Translations under genes and position numbers: made by a program
The notes under the pieces: generated by a model
Seen by the model: only the letters and a program-made list of their open reading frames with translations
The model's database searches: none
What the model was told of the DNA's origin: nothing
In this document: in pieces, positions 10,617 through 16,151 of the stretch
Layout of the letters: each line of letters opens with the position of its first letter
Position numbering within the stretch: the stretch's first letter is position 1
Virus genome (UHGV): UHGV-1755679
Length of the DNA stretch: 25,490 nt
Strand: one strand, 5' to 3'
DNA from: a virus

Positions 10617-11396
10617 CTATTTTAATTCTATGTAATTTTTAAATTCTCCCTCATATTTATACATGATGCTATCAAATCCTTCCATTACATCAACGAATTG
10701 TTGTGAACATTCCGGCTTCCAAGGCGTACACTTACGAACCATATCCATTTTTTTCTTATCCTTCGTTGTATCGACTAAGGATAGGTACCCTATAAAATTC
10801 ATCATCTGAACAGGATCTTGATTTGTGAATATATATTTGACGTTTTGCTTAGTAGGCGAAAAAGAATCAAAAGCAGGGAACATATATTCACCAGAAAAAG
10901 AGAGTGCAGCATCAATGACGTCTGTTGCAGGAGTGCAGTTGCTCAGAATTGGCACTAAGCTAAAATTAGCACCTGAGCACACTGCATATATATCATCCCC
11001 TTTTTTTAGTTTTAACAGAGAGTCTTGCTTTGAATCCAATATTTTCAATTTGATATAATTTAGTGGCGTTGCATTTTCCCCTGGAGTAAATAACTCTACA
11101 ATTGGTTTATTATTCACCATTCTTATGGATTTTATTTCACCATACACAATTGGAATTGTGTTCCATTTTTCCTGAGCAGCAAATTCATTATCTTTAAAAT
11201 CATTAACCAACTCAGATGGCAAATGATAACCAAATTGATTGTTCATTGCTTTCGAAGCAAATCCAGACAAATAGAATGCCCTTACTAAATCATAATCTTT
11301 CTTTGAGGTAGAAAGCCAATCTGGCAATTTATTATCAGCTATCGCGCTTCCAGCAAAAATAGCACAACAAAATGTTATTACATTAAATAATTTCAT
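10617..11396 (-). CDS. simC: Superimmunity protein Sim precursor with N-terminal signal peptide
   Basis: ORF track start at 11429 is GTG; the in-frame ATG at 11394-11396 gives MKLFNVITFCCAIFAGSAIA-DNKLPDW, a classical signal peptide with AxA cleavage site. Position next to the immI region matches the P1 sim locus. Confidence 0.65.
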   Translation of the reverse strand: MKLFNVITFCCAIFAGSAIADNKLPDWLSTSKKDYDLVRAFYLSGFASKAMNNQFGYHLPSELVNDFKDNEFAAQEKWNTIPIVYGEIKSIRMVNNKPIVELFTPGENATPLNYIKLKILDSKQDSLLKLKKGDDIYAVCSGANFSLVPILSNCTPATDVIDAALSFSGEYMFPAFDSFSPTKQNVKYIFTNQDPVQMMNFIGYLSLVDTTKDKKKMDMVRKCTPWKPECSQQFVDVMEGFDSIMYKYEGEFKNYIELK

Positions 11397-11403
11397 TTTC
11401 CAT

Positions 11404-11721
11404 TCACTCATTAATCGGTTTAAACTCACTAATTAATTCACCAAGACTATTTGGGTATGCTTTATAAATAACATACTCCGAAGAGCCATCTGAATATTGG
11501 TAAACCCCATAACAGACCAGTTTATTTATTCCTTTCTGAATAGTTTTTTGATTATAAGAATCAACCACTGTTATTCCATATGACGATAATATTTCGTTAT
11601 ATTCTTCAATAAGAGCTTTTCTTGTTTCCACTGAATTACAATCTACCTTCGAAAAGTCAACTTCATCAGCAAAAACATTAAATGTTAAAAAGGAAAGCAC
11701 TAAAAACAAACGAATCAGCAT
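11404..11721 (-). CDS. Small secreted protein of the sim operon (simB position)
   Basis: The internal ATG at 11719-11721 has SD AGGAGTGG and yields MLIRLFLVLSFLTFNVFA-DEV..., a signal peptide; the longer track ORF from 11739 lacks an SD. Confidence 0.45.
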   Translation of the reverse strand: MLIRLFLVLSFLTFNVFADEVDFSKVDCNSVETRKALIEEYNEILSSYGITVVDSYNQKTIQKGINKLVCYGVYQYSDGSSEYVIYKAYPNSLGELISEFKPINE

Positions 11722-11742
11722 AAATCCACTCCTACGCATGGA

Positions 11743-11874
11743 TTAATAGTCATTGATCGCAAAGGCGTAAACTTGCCAAAGGTATTTCGTATAATCGGTA
11801 CAAATCTCCTTTACGCTTGATGCTGCATTAACAGTCCCAGCCATAAATAATAACGATAGTAATAGTTTTCTCAT
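11743..11874 (-). CDS. 43-aa secreted peptide (simA position), not in the ORF track
   Basis: ATG at 11872-11874 preceded by SD AGGTGAGG; translation MRKLLLSLLFMAGTVNAASSVKEICTDYTKYLWQVYAFAINDY (signal-peptide-like N-terminus); stop TAA at 11743-11745. Confidence 0.4.
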   Translation of the reverse strand: MRKLLLSLLFMAGTVNAASSVKEICTDYTKYLWQVYAFAINDY

Positions 11875-11970
11875 TATAACCTCACCTGCCTTATAACCCA
11901 TTTAGGGTACATATTTTCGCCTTTAAAAAAAAGAGGTTATTAGATCCAACTGTGTATTTATTAAGCAGAT

Positions 11971-11987
11971 AATGCTCTAATAAATTT
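11971..11987 (+). promoter_or_regulatory. C1 repressor operator (Op51-like) controlling the c4-icd-ant immI operon
   Basis: AATGCTCTAATAAATTT matches the asymmetric 17-bp P1 C1 operator consensus ATTGCTCTAATAAATTT at 16 of 17 positions; a paralogous copy with similar flanking sequence lies upstream of kilA. Confidence 0.7.
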
Positions 11988-12159
11988 GTATTTTTAAGTC
12001 ACGAATGCTATCTTTTCGCATCATATTGACCTTTTAATCGTTCAGGCTTATAGTTCCGCCGTCGTAGCAAATTCTGCGACCGGGTTTAGCAGCCTGAATG
12101 ATTGTGCGGACAGCCGCAGATATCCGATATTGCGGTATTTTTGTGTCCGTAAAACCGCG

Positions 12160-12240
12160 TTACGCCCAAATTATGGTGGGGCGTGATGGGGAGGCTTCGG
12201 CCTGCTGGTTTCACAATCGCCAGTCTGCTAACCCCGTCAC
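12160..12240 (+). ncRNA. c4: c4 antisense repressor RNA region (approximate boundaries)
   Basis: Non-coding leader between the C1 operator and icd; contains CACAATC and CTGCTAAC segments complementary to GATTGTG / GTTTAGCAG elements found both upstream (12087-12109) and immediately in front of the icd RBS (12253-12293), plus a GGCTTCGGCC tetraloop hairpin. Boundaries not determinable by eye. Confidence 0.4.
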
Positions 12241-12301
12241 GTCCTGCCACCTGTTTAGCAGCGGGTAGCAGGTTGTTAAACCTGATTGTGAGGCCGTAAC
12301 T

Positions 12302-12523
12302 ATGGTTAATGCCAATCCTTGCGCACGCCCAGAATTCATCTGGCGTTTCTATTCCTGTAAAAAACACCACTATCACTTCGTTATCGCAGCAACTGAAGAC
12401 GAAGCACGCTCTCAATTGCCTGATGGCCCCTGCATTTTTACTGCCCGTTTTTCAACTAACTCGCGCAATTCACTTAGTTACTGGAGCCTCCCCTTCTCTG
12501 CCGACGTTCAGGGGGGTTTATGA
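12302..12523 (+). CDS. icd: Icd (interference with cell division), 73 aa, overlapping the start of ant
   Basis: ATG at 12302 with SD GAGG 8 nt upstream; the SD lies inside the GATTGTGAGG c4-target element; the stop overlaps the ant start codon. Confidence 0.6.
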   Translation: MVNANPCARPEFIWRFYSCKKHHYHFVIAATEDEARSQLPDGPCIFTARFSTNSRNSLSYWSLPFSADVQGGL

Positions 12524-13563
12524 AAAAACCTCTCGTCACCCGTAATGACATAGCCGAAGCGATCGCCCTGCATACTGCCTGTATACCGACACGGGAGATC
12601 CCCGGCGCAATTGCCAACTATTTCATGATAACCAGGCGTTTTTATACCCGAACAGATAAGGCTGTGATCAACAGGCTACTGATAGCCGAGATCAGGGATT
12701 ATTTGATTGAACAAGGACGTCTACGTTACGCAACGGTGGCAGCAGAAATGAGAAAGGAGGCACATAGAATGACCAGTAATAATTTGAATGTTAAAAAACC
12801 AGCACCTGTTGCTTCAGCAACGCCAGCACCAGCCGTGAATGTCATCCCCACCACCGGAGACACAATCGACAGCCTGACACTGTTAAAGATGGTCAATGAA
12901 GCGCGTAAGTTATGTGGGGAACCAGAGGTTCGGAACAACAAATTCATCGAAAAAATACTCGACGAATTAGAAGGTGAGGACGGTTACACAAAAAGTGCAA
13001 CCGTGCCGCCAGGTGGCGGTACGCCTATGGTTGTCATAACCATGACCTACAAACAAGCCCTGCGAGTCGCCGCGCGCGAATCGAAAGCGGTCCGCCGTTC
13101 GCTGATCGACAAACTGGAAGAATTGCAGCAGGCAAACTCCCCTACCCCATCGATCCCCCAAACATTACCAGAAGCCCTACGCCTGGCTGCCGAGTTGGCA
13201 GAACAGAAATTGCAGCTGGAACAACAGCTGGTGGCCGCAGCCCCTAAAGTCGATTTTGCCGACCGGGTATCAGTGGCTAATGGAATCCTGATCGGGAACT
13301 TTGCAAAGGTCGTTGGACTTAAGCAAAACGCCCTTTTCTCATGGTTGCGCCAGAACGGCATTCTCATGGCTTTTGGTGCGCGCAAAAACGTACCGCGCCA
13401 GCAGTACATTAACGCCGGGTATTTCACGGTGAAAGAAGTGGTGCTGGATGATGAAAATGGCTACCAGATACGGCTGACGCCCCAATTAACGGGTAAAGGC
13501 CAGCAGTGGTTAACTCGCAAGCTACTTGATGCTGGTTTGTTAAAACCAGTAGCAATAGGTTAA
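12520..13563 (+). CDS. ant: Antirepressor Ant (Ant1 347 aa; Ant2 would arise from an internal in-frame start) with C-terminal KilA-C/AntB-type domain
   Basis: ATG at 12520 with SD GGGGGG; the C-terminal about 140 aa (PQTLPEALRLAAELAEQK...GKGQQWLTRKLLDAGLL) is clearly paralogous to the KilA C-terminus downstream; position in immI. Confidence 0.8.
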   Translation: MKKPLVTRNDIAEAIALHTACIPTREIPGAIANYFMITRRFYTRTDKAVINRLLIAEIRDYLIEQGRLRYATVAAEMRKEAHRMTSNNLNVKKPAPVASATPAPAVNVIPTTGDTIDSLTLLKMVNEARKLCGEPEVRNNKFIEKILDELEGEDGYTKSATVPPGGGTPMVVITMTYKQALRVAARESKAVRRSLIDKLEELQQANSPTPSIPQTLPEALRLAAELAEQKLQLEQQLVAAAPKVDFADRVSVANGILIGNFAKVVGLKQNALFSWLRQNGILMAFGARKNVPRQQYINAGYFTVKEVVLDDENGYQIRLTPQLTGKGQQWLTRKLLDAGLLKPVAIG

Positions 13564-13640: not shown

Positions 13641-13657
13641 TTTGCTCTAATAAATTT
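13641..13657 (+). promoter_or_regulatory. C1 repressor operator (Op53-like) upstream of kilA-repL
   Basis: TTTGCTCTAATAAATTT matches the C1 operator consensus at 16 of 17 positions; located about 70 bp upstream of the kilA start. Confidence 0.7.
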
Positions 13658-13726: not shown

Positions 13727-14527
13727 ATGCAACAAACATTCAATGCGGATATGAATATATCAAACCTTCATCAAAATGTCGATCCTTCAACCACTCTGCC
13801 TGTTATTTGTGGTGTTGAAATTACGACCGACCGCGCTGGCCGTTACAACCTTAATGCTCTACACAGAGCGAGCGGACTCGGTGCCCATAAAGCGCCAGCT
13901 CAATGGCTAAGAACGCTGTCAGCCAAACAGCTCATCGAAGAGCTTGAAAAAGAAACTATGCAGAATTGCATAGTTTCGTTCGAAGGCCGTGGCGGCGGCA
14001 CTTTTGCCCATGAATTGCTCGCTGTGGAGTACGCAGGCTGGATTTCTCCCGCGTTTCGGCTGAAGGTAAACCAGACATTTATCGACTATCGAGCCGGAAG
14101 ATTACAACCTGCTATTCCGCAGAGTCTCCCTGAAGCTCTCCGTTTGGCTGCCGACCTGGCAGAGCAAAAGCAACGGCTGGAGCAAAAAATGCTTATGGAT
14201 GCACCTAAAGTCGAATTCGCCGAACGCGTTGCTACCGCCAGCGGGGTTCTAATCGGCAACTATGCCAAAGTGCTCGGTCTGGGCCAAAACTATCTCTTCA
14301 CCTGGTTGCGTGATAACGGAATTCTGATCGCAACCGGTGAACGCAGGAACGTCCCCAAACAAGAATACATATCCCGTGGGTATTTCACCCTTAAAGAAAC
14401 CGTGATCGATACAAGCAATGGAAGCAGGATTTCTTTCACGACTCGTATAACCGGCAAAGGTCAGCAGTGGCTGATGAAGCGATTGCTTGATGCTGGTGTG
14501 CTGGTACCTGTCGCGGCAACGCGCTAA
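13727..14527 (+). CDS. kilA: KilA (266 aa), KilA-N plus KilA-C domains
   Basis: ATG at 13727 with SD GGAG; C-terminal half paralogous to Ant; followed by repL as in P1. Confidence 0.8.
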   Translation: MQQTFNADMNISNLHQNVDPSTTLPVICGVEITTDRAGRYNLNALHRASGLGAHKAPAQWLRTLSAKQLIEELEKETMQNCIVSFEGRGGGTFAHELLAVEYAGWISPAFRLKVNQTFIDYRAGRLQPAIPQSLPEALRLAADLAEQKQRLEQKMLMDAPKVEFAERVATASGVLIGNYAKVLGLGQNYLFTWLRDNGILIATGERRNVPKQEYISRGYFTLKETVIDTSNGSRISFTTRITGKGQQWLMKRLLDAGVLVPVAATR

Positions 14528-14556: not shown

Positions 14557-15402
14557 ATGCTGGCTAAAGTCACTTTCCTGAGCTGTATAACGATGAGCGA
14601 TTTTACTTTTTCTGGCTATGAATTGGCCTGCTTTGTAACACACTCCGGTCTATCCCGTAGCGCCGGGCATATCCTGTCGCAATGTGCAAATCTAGCGGCA
14701 ACAACCAGTGAATACTTCATTCACAAGCCTCACCGCCTGATCGCGGCAGAAACTGGTTATAGCCAATCAACCGTCGTTCGTGCATTCCGTGAAGCTGTAA
14801 ACAAAGGAATTCTGTCTGTAGAGATTGTTATCGGCGATCACCATGAACGTCGCGCTAACCTGTACCGGTTTACACCATCCTTTTTGGCCTTCGCACAACA
14901 AGCCAAAAATGCGCTGATTGAAAGCAAATTAAAGATCTCTTCAGCGGCAACCAAGGTTAAAGCTGTTCTCGCTAAGACATTGGCTTTATTTAATTTTTTA
15001 TCCACACCCCCATGTCAAAATGATACCCCCTCCCCCTGTCAGGATGACGTGGCAATAAAGAATAAGAAGTCACAAGTTAAAAAAACAAAAAGATCAGTTT
15101 CCGGCGGTGCCGGAACGAGCAGACTCAAAAAATTGACTTCATGGATCGCTGAGGCAAAAGCAAAGGCTGACAATCTGCGGTTATCCAAAAAACGCGCTCA
15201 AAAACATGAGTTCAAGCAGAAAGTAGAGGCGGCAGCGCGGAAATATGCTTACCTGAAGAACAAGCGTTCTCCTGATATTGGCGGGGTATCAAACTTCGAT
15301 AATTTGCCGCATTGCATGACGGTAAACGAAGCTCTTAATGCGATTTTAGCCAAAAATAAAGATAACGAAAAATGGGGTATACCGGCAGGATTCAGGGGGT
15401 GA
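14557..15402 (+). CDS. repL: RepL lytic replication initiator (281 aa); the lytic origin is expected inside this gene
   Basis: ATG at 14557; 281-aa product immediately downstream of kilA under the Op53-controlled promoter, matching the P1 kilA-repL arrangement. No clear SD, so the start is uncertain (alternative ATG at 14593). Confidence 0.7.
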   Translation: MLAKVTFLSCITMSDFTFSGYELACFVTHSGLSRSAGHILSQCANLAATTSEYFIHKPHRLIAAETGYSQSTVVRAFREAVNKGILSVEIVIGDHHERRANLYRFTPSFLAFAQQAKNALIESKLKISSAATKVKAVLAKTLALFNFLSTPPCQNDTPSPCQDDVAIKNKKSQVKKTKRSVSGGAGTSRLKKLTSWIAEAKAKADNLRLSKKRAQKHEFKQKVEAAARKYAYLKNKRSPDIGGVSNFDNLPHCMTVNEALNAILAKNKDNEKWGIPAGFRG

Positions 15403-15452
15403 TAGATTGCTCTAATCTGGAGTCACCTGGCGTTTTCAGTTTGAGGTCGGAG

Positions 15453-15698
15453 ATGCAATCTGATTTTTTACAGTTAGCGATCGCTTTTGCAGGATATGTT
15501 TGTATTGGCTTCTGTGTATACATGATCAGCCGAAAAATGCTTGTCGATATCGACCGCAAAGAACGAGCAGAGGAGATCTTAGTATGGATTTTCTTTGGCG
15601 CGGTCTGGCCATTAGGGATCATGTTTGCTGCAACATTTCTTCTGATGTGGATATTCACCCTTCCAGGTGATTTCTATAGAAAAAAAGCCAGACATTGA
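15453..15698 (+). CDS. Small membrane protein with two predicted TM helices (rlfA position)
   Basis: The track ORF from 15372 starts inside repL; the internal ATG at 15453 with SD GAGG gives an 81-aa product with two hydrophobic segments (LQLAIAFAGYVCIGFCVYMI; ILVWIFFGAVWPLGIMFAATFLLMWIF). Confidence 0.4.
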   Translation: MQSDFLQLAIAFAGYVCIGFCVYMISRKMLVDIDRKERAEEILVWIFFGAVWPLGIMFAATFLLMWIFTLPGDFYRKKARH

Positions 15699-15789
15699 TA
15701 CAATCGTTGCGGGTGCTTGAGGCTATCTGCTTCAGGCATTACCCGAAAAGCAGATAGAAGAAAGCCCCAGATAACATTACGCGTCCTGC

Positions 15790-15860
15790 AAGACGCTTAA
15801 CATTAATCTGAGGCCATATCTATGCTTAGCATACGTAGATTAGCCTCTTACCGACCAAAA
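15790..15860 (-). ncRNA. Possible Sok-like antisense RNA opposite the mok start / hok leader (boundaries approximate)
   Basis: Inferred only from the canonical organisation of hok/sok loci; no promoter or terminator could be assigned by eye. Confidence 0.2.
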
Positions 15861-16028
15861 GGTCAAGGAGAAGCAGGCTATGAAGCAGCAAAAAGCGATG
15901 TTAATCGCTCTGATCGTCATCTGTTTAACCGTCATTGTGACGGCACTGGTAACGAGGAAAGACCTCTGCGAGGTACGAATCCGAACCGGCCAGACGGAGG
16001 TCACTGTCTTCACAGCCTACGAATCTGA
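15822..16028 (+). CDS. mok-like overlapping reading frame (68 aa) that would couple translation to hok
   Basis: ATG at 15822 with SD GAGG; overlaps almost the entire hok frame in a different reading frame, as mok does in hok/sok loci. Confidence 0.45.
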   Translation: MLSIRRLASYRPKGQGEAGYEAAKSDVNRSDRHLFNRHCDGTGNEERPLRGTNPNRPDGGHCLHSLRI

Positions 16029-16035
16029 AAGGTAA
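15880..16035 (+). CDS. hok: Hok/Gef-family type I toxin (51 aa membrane peptide)
   Basis: ATG at 15880 with SD AGGAG; translation MKQQKAMLIALIVICLTVIVTALVTRKDLCEVRIRTGQTEVTVFTAYESER is near-identical in pattern to HokC/Gef-family peptides (single TM helix, conserved RKDLCEV...RTGQTEV...FTAYES). Not in the ORF track because of its size and frame. Confidence 0.85.
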   Translation: MKQQKAMLIALIVICLTVIVTALVTRKDLCEVRIRTGQTEVTVFTAYESER

Positions 16036-16104
16036 GAGACCTGGCGGGGAGAGATCCTCGCCACTCTTCGTGTGTCAGGTATCCTCAATGCACCCTTTCC
16101 TCTC

Positions 16105-16131
16105 CAAATAAAAAAGCTCCCGAAGGAGCTT
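16105..16131 (-). terminator. Intrinsic terminator at the end of the leftward late operon (possibly also bounding the hok transcript)
   Basis: Stem AGCTCC / GGAGCT with CGAA loop followed on the minus strand by TTTTTTATTT; lies 20 bp downstream of the 169-aa ORF stop. Confidence 0.55.
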
Positions 16132-16151
16132 TAAAATACAAGGGATGACTC

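What the first reader, a model, noticed from the sequence alone, without database searches (positions are those of the whole stretch)
11960..12530. immI antisense-RNA control region: c4-like RNA with duplicated target elements flanking it
Between the C1 operator (11971-11987) and icd there is a structured non-coding leader. The short elements GTTTAGCAG and GATTGTG occur twice in direct orientation (12087-12109 and 12253-12293, the latter overlapping the icd SD), and their complements CACAATC and CTGCTAAC lie between them (about 12205-12232) next to a GGCTTCGGCC tetraloop hairpin. This is the arrangement expected for the P1 c4 RNA, which is cut from the same transcript and pairs with two sites to block icd/ant translation. 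Exact RNA ends cannot be read off by eye.
Basis: partly seen in the sequence, partly recalled or inferred. Interest (0 to 1): 0.4.

Follow-up and report, generated by a model that had tools for sequence, protein, structure and literature searches.

The report
P7-type c4 antisense RNA immunity switch
This is the already well-studied c4 antisense-RNA switch that keeps the anti-repressor of a P1-family plasmid prophage silent; here its RNA and target sites are base-for-base those of phage P7, so it is ordinary.

Summary
Rfam places a C4 antisense RNA at 12169-12254 (69.6 bits, cut-off 45). It places the upstream a1/b1 target motif at 12048-12100 (55.5 bits, cut-off 46.7). The window is a P1-like plasmid prophage. 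Positions 11973-12333 are identical to annotated phage P7. That stretch holds part of the C1 operator, the promoters, a1/b1, c4, a2/b2 and the start of icd. All six specificity sites are P7-type (a = UUAGCAG, b = GAUUGUG) rather than P1-type (UUGACAG, GUUAGUG). The DNA to the left, including the sim operon, is P1-type. Transferring the P7 annotation puts the mature 77-nt c4 RNA at 12175-12251. It folds as expected (-44.9 kcal/mol, z = -5.7), with b' in a hairpin loop and a' in the unpaired junction. Site b2 overlaps the icd Shine-Dalgarno sequence, and the icd stop overlaps the ant1 start (ATGA). In 113 related loci with all six sites, 111 keep perfect three-way complementarity across 11 a/b combinations, with compensatory changes. 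This supports the pairing model. Nothing here is novel for the window. The only mildly new by-product is the combinatorial repertoire of specificities.

The parts
11971..11987 (+). C1 repressor operator Op(c4), formerly Op51: AATGCTCTAATAAATTT
   Evidence: One mismatch to the C1 operator consensus. Two such sites in the window against 0.07 expected. Same position as the annotated protein_bind features of P1 and P7.
11985..12014 (+). Promoter P2c4 (formerly P51a), overlapping the operator. Placed by homology only.
   Evidence: Coordinates transferred from the P1 annotation (L002 1546-1575) through alignment A1. The generic sigma-70 scan did not find it.
12026..12054 (+). Promoter P1c4 (formerly P51b): TTGACC, 17 nt, TATAGT
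   Evidence: 10 of 12 consensus matches, and the only promoter-like site in 11880-12620. Coincides with the annotated P1c4 promoter of P1.
12048..12100 (+). c4-a1b1 leader motif: two hairpins, with a1 exposed in the second loop
   Evidence: Rfam RF03163, 55.5 bits against a gathering score of 46.7, E = 1e-11, full length.
12086..12092 (+). a1 target site UUAGCAG (P7-type)
   Evidence: Transferred from the P1 misc_binding annotation. Complementary to a'. The a1:a' helix is 100% paired in 38 distinct sequences, with 2 of 7 pairs changed on both sides.
12100..12106 (+). b1 target site GAUUGUG (P7-type)
   Evidence: From the P1 annotation. The b1:b' helix is 100% paired, with 6 of 7 pairs showing compensatory changes.
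12175..12251 (+). Mature c4 antisense RNA, 77 nt: GGUGGGG...GCCACC
   Evidence: Rfam RF01695, 69.6 bits against a cut-off of 45, over 12169-12254. Ends transferred from the misc_RNA annotations of P7 and P1. MFE -44.9 kcal/mol, z = -5.7.
12193..12202 (+). GGCUUCGGCC hairpin with a UUCG tetraloop, inside c4
   Evidence: Predicted in the MFE and centroid folds. Invariant in all 38 distinct relatives.
12211..12218 (+). b' recognition element UCACAAUC, in the 9-nt loop of the second c4 hairpin
   Evidence: Unpaired in the fold. Complementary to b1 (7 bp) and b2 (8 bp). Cognate duplexes score -8.7 and -15.1 kcal/mol, against -3.2 and -8.5 with P1 targets.
12225..12231 (+). a' recognition element CUGCUAA, in the unpaired junction of c4
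   Evidence: Unpaired in the fold. Complementary to a1 and a2. Cognate duplexes score -13.4 and -9.0 kcal/mol, against -6.5 and -3.5 with P1 targets.
12255..12261 (+). a2 target site UUAGCAG
   Evidence: From the P1 annotation. The a':a2 helix is 100% paired, with 2 of 7 pairs compensatory.
12284..12293 (+). b2 target site GAUUGUGA (12284-12291), overlapping the icd Shine-Dalgarno GAGG (12290-12293)
   Evidence: From the P1 annotation and the sequence itself. The b':b2 helix is 99.7% paired, with 6 of 8 pairs compensatory.
12302..12523 (+). icd, 73 aa, cell-division inhibitor. Its translation is the direct target of c4.
   Evidence: ORF. Two amino-acid differences each from P1 Icd and P7 Icd. 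Annotated as icd in P1 and P7.
12520..13563 (+). ant1, 347 aa. The in-frame ant2 start is at 12769. The ant1 start overlaps the icd stop (ATGA at 12520-12523).
   Evidence: ORF. Pfam ANT/KilAC domain, 106 bits. 324 identical positions over a 349-column alignment with P1 Ant1. The ant2 ATG is preceded by AAGGAGG.

Best explanation
The region is the control region of the immI operon (c4-icd-ant1/2) of a P1-family plasmid prophage, and it carries a c4 antisense RNA of P7 specificity.

Proposed mechanism:
1. Transcription starts at two promoters downstream of, or overlapping, the C1 operator at 11971-11987.
2. The 77-nt c4 RNA (12175-12251) is cut out of the leader of this same transcript.
3. Its two unpaired elements, b' in a hairpin loop and a' in the junction, pair with a2/b2 just upstream of icd. 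Site b2 covers the icd Shine-Dalgarno sequence, so icd is not translated.
4. ant1 is translationally coupled to icd through the ATGA overlap. According to published work on P1/P7, untranslated icd also allows premature transcription termination. The Ant anti-repressor is therefore not made, and the C1 repressor stays active.
5. The upstream a1/b1 sites are a second cognate binding site on the same transcript.

Because the recognition bases are P7-type, this element should be immI-homoimmune with P7 and heteroimmune with P1.

Shown here: family membership, sequence identity to P7, the fold, the complementarity, covariation of all four helices, the overlap with the Shine-Dalgarno sequence, and the icd/ant1 overlap.

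Inferred from published P1/P7 work: processing of c4 (5' end by RNase P), action in trans, the block to translation, the polarity on ant, and the immunity phenotype.
For: - Rfam C4 scores 69.6 bits (cut-off 45) and c4-a1b1 scores 55.5 bits (cut-off 46.7).
- The 601-nt region is 99.3% identical to P7 over 95% of its length and 95.8% identical to P1. It is 100% identical to many E. coli and E. albertii plasmids.
- The three-way alignment shows the window equals P7 at every base that differs between P1 and P7 within a1, b1, b', a', a2 and b2.
- The annotations of P1 and P7 give the operator, promoters, c4 misc_RNA, target sites, icd and ant1/2 at collinear positions.
- The c4 fold leaves b' and a' unpaired, at -44.9 kcal/mol and z = -5.7.
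- Cognate loop-target duplexes are 5-7 kcal/mol more stable than those with P1-type targets.
- Of 113 related loci carrying all six sites, 111 keep perfect complementarity, across 11 a/b combinations.
- On 38 distinct sequences the four target helices are 99.7-100% paired. Six of 7-8 b pairs and 2 of 7 a pairs carry double-sided changes. Slid controls pair in only 29-54% of cells.
- Context is as expected: the sim operon upstream, then ant1/2, a second C1 operator, kilA and repL downstream.
- The literature describes c4 as a trans-acting antisense RNA that represses Ant synthesis and underlies P1/P7 heteroimmunity (PMC8198154, PMC8546580, PMC12197685). It also lists c4 as an RNase P substrate (PMC2190699).
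Against: I found nothing substantive against this reading.

- There are no expression, processing or immunity data for this particular element.
- The RNA ends are transferred from annotation, not measured.
- Covariation cannot separate pairing in trans from pairing in cis within the same transcript.
- The sequences surveyed are closely related, so shuffle-based statistics overstate independence. The number of distinct compensated types (7 b-types, 2 a-types) is the sounder argument.
- The P51a promoter was not picked up by the generic promoter scan.
Confidence: 0.95

Rival explanations
1. The complementary elements act only in cis, as alternative leader structures in an attenuator-like switch within the primary transcript. 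On this view there is no diffusible antisense RNA.
For: c4 and all four target sites lie on one transcript and one strand. Covariation is equally compatible with intramolecular pairing.
Against: - In the MFE fold of the whole leader, c4 forms its own closed domain and the a/b sites are not paired to it.
- The sequence is identical to P7 c4, which the literature describes as a processed, trans-acting 77-nt RNA that determines heteroimmunity between co-resident phages (PMC8546580, PMC12197685; Citron and Schuster 1990 and 1992 as cited there).
- Contigs with two c4-icd loci always carry different specificities. That only matters if the RNAs diffuse.
Confidence: 0.03
2. The c4 locus encodes a small protein repressor. 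This was the historical view. ORFs at 12098-12268 (56 aa) and 12183-12299 (38 aa) overlap it.
For: Mechanical ORFs exist. An old P1 GenBank record (X15639) still annotates 'c4: CDS' (H21).
Against: - The sequence fits an RNA covariance model.
- Variation among relatives is concentrated in the complementary elements and is compensatory at the RNA level, with up to 6 of 7 adjacent bases replaced. That pattern reflects base pairing rather than constraint on a protein sequence.
- The current P1 and P7 records annotate a misc_RNA.
Confidence: 0.01
3. The short repeats and their complements are a chance arrangement in an AT/GC-mixed intergenic region.
For: GATTGTG alone is no rarer than chance: 5 matches found against 3.7 expected.
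Against: - The 9-mer occurs twice against 0.23 expected.
- There are two independent Rfam hits, with E-values of about 1e-11.
- The region is identical to a characterised locus.
- The sites covary in many relatives.
Confidence: 0.005

Closest known systems
Phage P7 immI control region (c4 RNA, AF503408 51057-51133, with Op(c4), a1/b1, a2/b2 and icd)
   Same: Identical sequence from window 11973 to 12333. This covers the right part of the operator, both promoters, a1/b1, c4, a2/b2 and the start of icd. The order and spacing are the same, as are the 77-nt RNA and the downstream icd-ant1/2-Op(rep)-kilA layout.
   Different: To the left of 11973 the window carries the P1-type sim operon, where P7 has upf50.0/upf50.5. 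There are four nucleotide differences in icd, giving two amino-acid changes. Ant1 is 347 aa as in P1, not 348 aa, and is slightly closer to P1 Ant1 (324/349) than to P7 Ant1 (317/350).
Phage P1 immI control region (c4 RNA, AF234172 48343-48419)
   Same: Same architecture, the same c4 scaffold, and the same operator, promoters and sim operon upstream. Overall identity is 95.8-97%.
   Different: The recognition bases differ at each of the six sites: a is UUGACAG in P1 against UUAGCAG here, and b is GUUAGUG against GAUUGUG. The calculated heterologous duplexes are 5-7 kcal/mol weaker. This is the published basis of P1/P7 heteroimmunity.
c4 variants of other P1-supercluster plasmid prophages (D6, SJ46, vB_EcoM-673R5 and IMG/VR contigs)
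   Same: Same c4 scaffold, and the same positions for a1/b1/b'/a'/a2/b2 upstream of icd.
   Different: They carry other b specificities (b' cores GTAAGT, ATTCGT, ATGTAC, ACAAGT, TTGAAC), combined with either of the two a specificities.
Other phage antisense or processed immunity RNAs: satellite phage P4 CI RNA and Salmonella phage P22 sar RNA (from my own knowledge, not tested here)
   Same: Each is a small RNA that maintains immunity or controls an anti-repressor by base pairing. Like c4, P4 CI RNA is processed from the leader of the operon it controls and pairs with repeated target sites on that transcript.
   Different: They are unrelated in sequence and structure. No Rfam hit to either family was found in the window. 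P22 sar is transcribed from the opposite strand of ant. P4 CI acts through transcription termination rather than by occluding a Shine-Dalgarno sequence.

Membership tests
C4 antisense RNA (Rfam RF01695; P1/P7 c4) | Sequence and secondary structure fit the covariance model at or above the gathering score | tested here: met
   69.6 bits against 45, E = 6.8e-12, model positions 1-87 of 87, window 12169-12254, + strand.
C4 antisense RNA (Rfam RF01695; P1/P7 c4) | A long closing stem encloses two hairpins. One recognition element (b') sits in a hairpin loop and the other (a') in the unpaired junction. | tested here: met
   The MFE and centroid folds of 12175-12251 agree, at -44.9 kcal/mol and z = -5.7. 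UUUCACAAU forms a 9-nt loop and UCUGCUA is unpaired.
C4 antisense RNA (Rfam RF01695; P1/P7 c4) | a' and b' are complementary to a2/b2 immediately upstream of icd, and b2 overlaps the ribosome binding site | tested here: met
   a2 is at 12255-12261, b2 at 12284-12291, the Shine-Dalgarno GAGG at 12290-12293 and the ATG at 12302. The helices are 99.7-100% paired with compensatory changes.
C4 antisense RNA (Rfam RF01695; P1/P7 c4) | A second, upstream pair of cognate sites (a1/b1) within the structured c4-a1b1 motif (RF03163) | tested here: met
   55.5 bits against 46.7, window 12048-12100. a1 is at 12086-12092 and b1 at 12100-12106. Both covary with c4.
C4 antisense RNA (Rfam RF01695; P1/P7 c4) | Encoded on the same strand and transcript as its targets, in a C1-controlled c4-icd-ant1/2 operon | tested here: met
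   The operator is at 11971-11987 and the promoter at 12026-12054. icd, ant1 and ant2 are collinear with the P1 and P7 annotations. That a single transcript spans them is inferred from P1, not measured here.
C4 antisense RNA (Rfam RF01695; P1/P7 c4) | Processed to a 77-nt RNA, with the 5' end made by RNase P | not testable with these tools
   The ends 12175 and 12251 come from annotation only. The 3' GCCACC and the acceptor-like stem are present. The literature lists c4 as an RNase P substrate (PMC2190699, citing Hartmann et al. 1995).
C4 antisense RNA (Rfam RF01695; P1/P7 c4) | Represses icd/ant expression in trans and sets immI immunity specificity | not testable with these tools
   Known for P1 and P7 (PMC8198154, PMC8546580, PMC12197685). 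Inferred here from sequence identity with P7.
P7-type (as opposed to P1-type) immI specificity | Recognition bases at a1, b1, b', a', a2 and b2 equal those of P7 | tested here: met
   Alignment A1: the window equals P7, and differs from P1, at all specificity positions. It groups with the 31 loci of type a' CT / b' ACAATC.

The most novel reading that the evidence does not exclude
The window's own locus is not novel. The most novel reading left open comes from the survey made to test it. Across P1-family elements, c4 specificity looks like a modular two-site code. At least 2 a-types and 7 b-types are freely combined, giving 11 or more combinations in 113 loci. There would then be many more immI immunity groups than the classical P1/P7 pair. 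The 'spare' upstream a1/b1 sites covary as strictly as the functional a2/b2 sites, so a1/b1 appear to be under selection for c4 binding, for example for self-titration or processing control. Elements that carry two c4-icd loci always use different codes. I could not establish whether this repertoire has already been described. Gilcrease and Casjens 2018 (Virology 515:203) may cover part of it, but it is not held in the library.
Probability: 0.25. Interest if true: 0.35.

Novelty: already known. Interest (0 to 1): 0.1.

Why it matters
For this window it matters only as annotation. It identifies the element as a P1-backbone plasmid prophage with P7-type immI immunity. That predicts which relatives it can coexist with, and which it would fail to keep in check through Ant control.

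More broadly, c4 is a textbook case of an antisense RNA processed from its own target transcript. The covariation survey made here independently confirms the pairing model, and it shows how immunity specificity diversifies by concerted change at three sites.

Tried and rejected
- **Chance repeats:** rejected.
- **A small c4 protein:** rejected. The ORFs overlap the RNA, but the variation is compensatory at the RNA level.
- **A novel specificity type:** rejected. The window is identical to P7.
- **A second c4 copy in the window:** none reached the Rfam gathering score.
- **Terminator-like site in icd (12329-12343):** the generic scan found it, but at the frequency expected by chance. I did not interpret it.
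- **Primary literature:** I tried to read Lobocka 2004 (PMC523184), Hartmann 1995 (PMC41593) and Gilcrease and Casjens 2018 (PMC5800970 and by DOI). None is held. Statements about RNase P processing, Rho-dependent polarity and the constitutive or C1-controlled nature of the two promoters therefore rest on secondary citations and on my own knowledge.
Full report
**1. What is in the sequence**

- GTTTAGCAG occurs twice in the whole window, at 12084-12092 and 12253-12261. Chance expectation is 0.23.
- GATTGTG lies 8 nt after the first copy (12100-12106) and 22 nt after the second (12284-12290). There its last G begins the GAGG Shine-Dalgarno sequence (12290-12293) of the ORF that starts at 12302.
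- Between the two pairs lie the GGCTTCGGCC hairpin (12193-12202), CACAATC (12212-12218) and CTGCTAAC (12225-12232).
- The 7-mer alone is not rarer than chance. The arrangement is what carries the signal.
Everything else is accurate.
- The proposed C1 operator at 11971-11987 (AATGCTCTAATAAATTT) is one of only two near-consensus sites in 25.5 kb, against 0.07 expected. The other, at 13641-13657, precedes kilA.

**2. What it is**

A gathering-threshold Rfam scan of the whole window gives three hits.
- C4 antisense RNA (RF01695): 12169-12254, + strand, 69.6 bits against a cut-off of 45.
- c4-a1b1, 'a1, b1 targets of C4 antisense RNA' (RF03163): 12048-12100, + strand, 55.5 bits against 46.7.
- An unrelated sok RNA at 15711-15885.

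BLAST shows the window is a P1-like (Punavirus) plasmid prophage.
- The 601-nt region is 100% identical to plasmids of E. coli O55:H7 RM12579 and several E. albertii strains.
- It is 99.3% identical to phage P7 over its right-hand 95%, and 95.8% identical to P1 over its full length.
- The first 25 kb of the window are 98-99.9% identical to about 95-kb E. coli plasmids, and collinear with P1.

The curated P1 and P7 records list the following features, in this order:
- the C1 operator;
- promoters P2c4/P1c4 (formerly P51a/P51b);
- a1 and b1;
- the 77-nt c4 misc_RNA;
- a2 and b2;
- icd, ant1 and ant2;
- a second operator, then kilA.

The three-way alignment transfers all of these onto the window without ambiguity. 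The gap-free BLAST segment 11973-12915, matching P7 1501-2443, confirms the mapping.
- c4 RNA: 12175-12251.
- a1: 12086-12092. b1: 12100-12106.
- b': 12211-18. a': 12225-31.
- a2: 12255-61. b2: 12284-91.
- icd: 12302-12523.
- ant1: 12520-13563. ant2 starts at 12769, behind AAGGAGG.

**3. P1-type, P7-type or new?**

At every position where P1 and P7 differ within the six recognition sites, the window equals P7. The a sites read UUAGCAG against UUGACAG in P1. The b sites read GAUUGUG against GUUAGUG.

The window is identical to P7 from 11973 to 12333. To the left of 11973 it follows P1 instead. It has the sim operon (simC 10617-11429, simB 11404-11739, simA 11743-11901, all on the minus strand), where P7 has two unrelated membrane-protein genes.

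The element is therefore a P1/P7 mosaic with P7-type immI. Such mosaics are common among these plasmids (PMC6906374).

**4. Structure and pairing**

The 77-nt RNA folds into a 17-bp closing stem that encloses two hairpins. One is the UUCG-capped hairpin. The other has a 9-nt loop, UUUCACAAU, which presents b'. The a' element (UCUGCUA) lies in the unpaired junction.
- The MFE and centroid structures agree: -44.9 kcal/mol, z = -5.7, and 0 of 200 shuffles fold as well.
- In the fold of the whole leader, c4 remains a separate closed domain.
- Calculated loop-target duplexes favour cognate sites. For b':b2 the energy is -15.1 kcal/mol, against -8.5 with the P1 target. For a':a2 it is -9.0 against -3.5. 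The upstream sites behave the same way.

**5. Comparative test of the mechanism**

I scanned IMG/VR for the constant c4 scaffold, leaving the recognition bases free. I added P1, P7, D6, SJ46 and 673R5.
- 113 loci have all six sites.
- a1 and a2 match a' in 113 of 113. b1 and b2 each match b' in 112 of 113. All four match together in 111 of 113.
- This holds across 2 a-types and 6 b-types in 11 combinations. A seventh b-type occurs in a more divergent locus, L107.
- The P7 type is the commonest, with 31 loci.

I also counted pairs on an alignment of 38 distinct sequences.
- b1:b' is 100% paired, with compensatory double changes in 6 of 7 pairs.
- b':b2 is 99.7% paired, with double changes in 6 of 8 pairs.
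- a1:a' and a':a2 are 100% paired, with double changes in 2 of 7 pairs each.
- When the partners are slid by 1-3 columns, pairing falls to 29-54%.

The sequences are related, so the shuffle statistics overstate independence. Even so, seven different b sequences, each matched by reverse complement at three sites, cannot come from inheritance or direct-repeat homogenisation alone. This result supports base pairing between c4 and both target pairs. It does not by itself tell pairing in cis from pairing in trans.

**6. Mechanism**

Shown here:
- the operator and promoters are in place;
- c4 lies in the leader, with exposed recognition elements;
- b2 overlaps the icd Shine-Dalgarno sequence;
- the icd stop and the ant1 start overlap (ATGA, 12520-12523);
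- Ant1 carries the KilAC anti-repressor domain.

Taken from the literature on P1 and P7:
- c4 is a processed 77-base RNA that acts in trans;
- it represses Ant synthesis and is needed for full repression alongside C1;
- it accounts for P1/P7 heteroimmunity.

These points come from PMC8198154, PMC8546580 and PMC12197685, which cite Citron and Schuster 1990 and 1992 and Heinrich et al. 1994 and 1995. The c4 precursor is an RNase P substrate (PMC2190699, citing Hartmann et al. 1995).

From my own knowledge, not verified here: blocking icd translation causes Rho-dependent termination before ant (Biere, Citron and Schuster 1992), and P51b is constitutive whereas P51a is controlled by C1.

**7. Rivals**

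- A cis-only leader switch is disfavoured. c4 forms an independent domain, published work reports trans activity, and contigs with two c4-icd loci always carry different specificities.
- A c4 protein is the historical annotation, still present in X15639. The RNA-level compensation argues against it.
- Chance is excluded.

**8. Verdict**

This is an already known system, identical to the P7 allele, so interest is low. The one by-product worth recording is the combinatorial a x b specificity repertoire and the strict covariation of the a1/b1 sites. I could not check whether this has been published, because Gilcrease and Casjens 2018 is not held.

Noticed in passing
window 15711-16035 (+): A complete hok/sok type I toxin-antitoxin module lies just downstream of repL (14557-15402). 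The sok RNA scores 114.9 bits in Rfam, and a 51-aa Hok ORF at 15880-16035 scores 78.7 bits for Pfam HOK_GEF. Only six phage records cover at least 80% of 15350-16150. All six are P1-like elements, and the reference P1 (AF234172/AF234173/NC_005856) and P7 records are not among them.
   Followed up: partly
window 13641-13657 (+): A second C1 operator (TTTGCTCTAATAAATTT) lies upstream of kilA (13727-14527). It corresponds to Op53/OrepL of P1.
   Followed up: yes
window 10617-11973: There is a mosaic junction. The sim superimmunity operon and the DNA up to the left part of the operator are P1-type and absent from P7. From 11973 onward the sequence is P7-type.
   Followed up: yes
loci L006-L125 (IMG/VR) and L001-L005: c4 recognition sites come in 2 a-types and 7 b-types (b' cores ACAATC, ACTAAC, GTAAGT, ATTCGT, ATGTAC, ACAAGT, TTGAAC), in at least 11 combinations. 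The site order is a1-b1...b'-a'-a2...b2, so exchanging only one type needs two separate recombination patches or parallel mutation. How the reassortment arises is unexplained.
   Followed up: partly
L020/L055, L017/L079, L058/L066 (pairs on the same IMG/VR contig): Three contigs carry two c4-icd loci each. In every case the two loci have different specificity types, consistent with orthogonal control. A second c4/icd region has also been reported in D6-like plasmids (PMC6799933).
   Followed up: partly
L046:4690-4926 (-) and L005:731-967 (+): These are the two exceptions to perfect complementarity. L046 has b' ATTCGT with a matching b1 but a P1-type b2 (GTTAGT). It lies near a contig end, so it may be a recombinant or an assembly chimera, and it predicts c4-insensitive icd/ant. 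Phage vB_EcoM-673R5 (L005) has a GG insertion inside b1 while its b2 is intact.
   Followed up: no
window 12130-12185 (query positions 191-246): The conserved core of c4 has 83-84% matches in Stx-converting and other lambdoid phages, under genes annotated as antirepressor or Rha (H27-H37). This fits the broad distribution of the Rfam C4 family outside P1-like phages.
   Followed up: no
window 12098-12268 and 12183-12299 (+): Mechanical ORFs of 56 and 38 aa overlap c4. The old P1 record X15639 still annotates 'c4: CDS', left over from when c4 was thought to be a protein repressor.
   Followed up: yes
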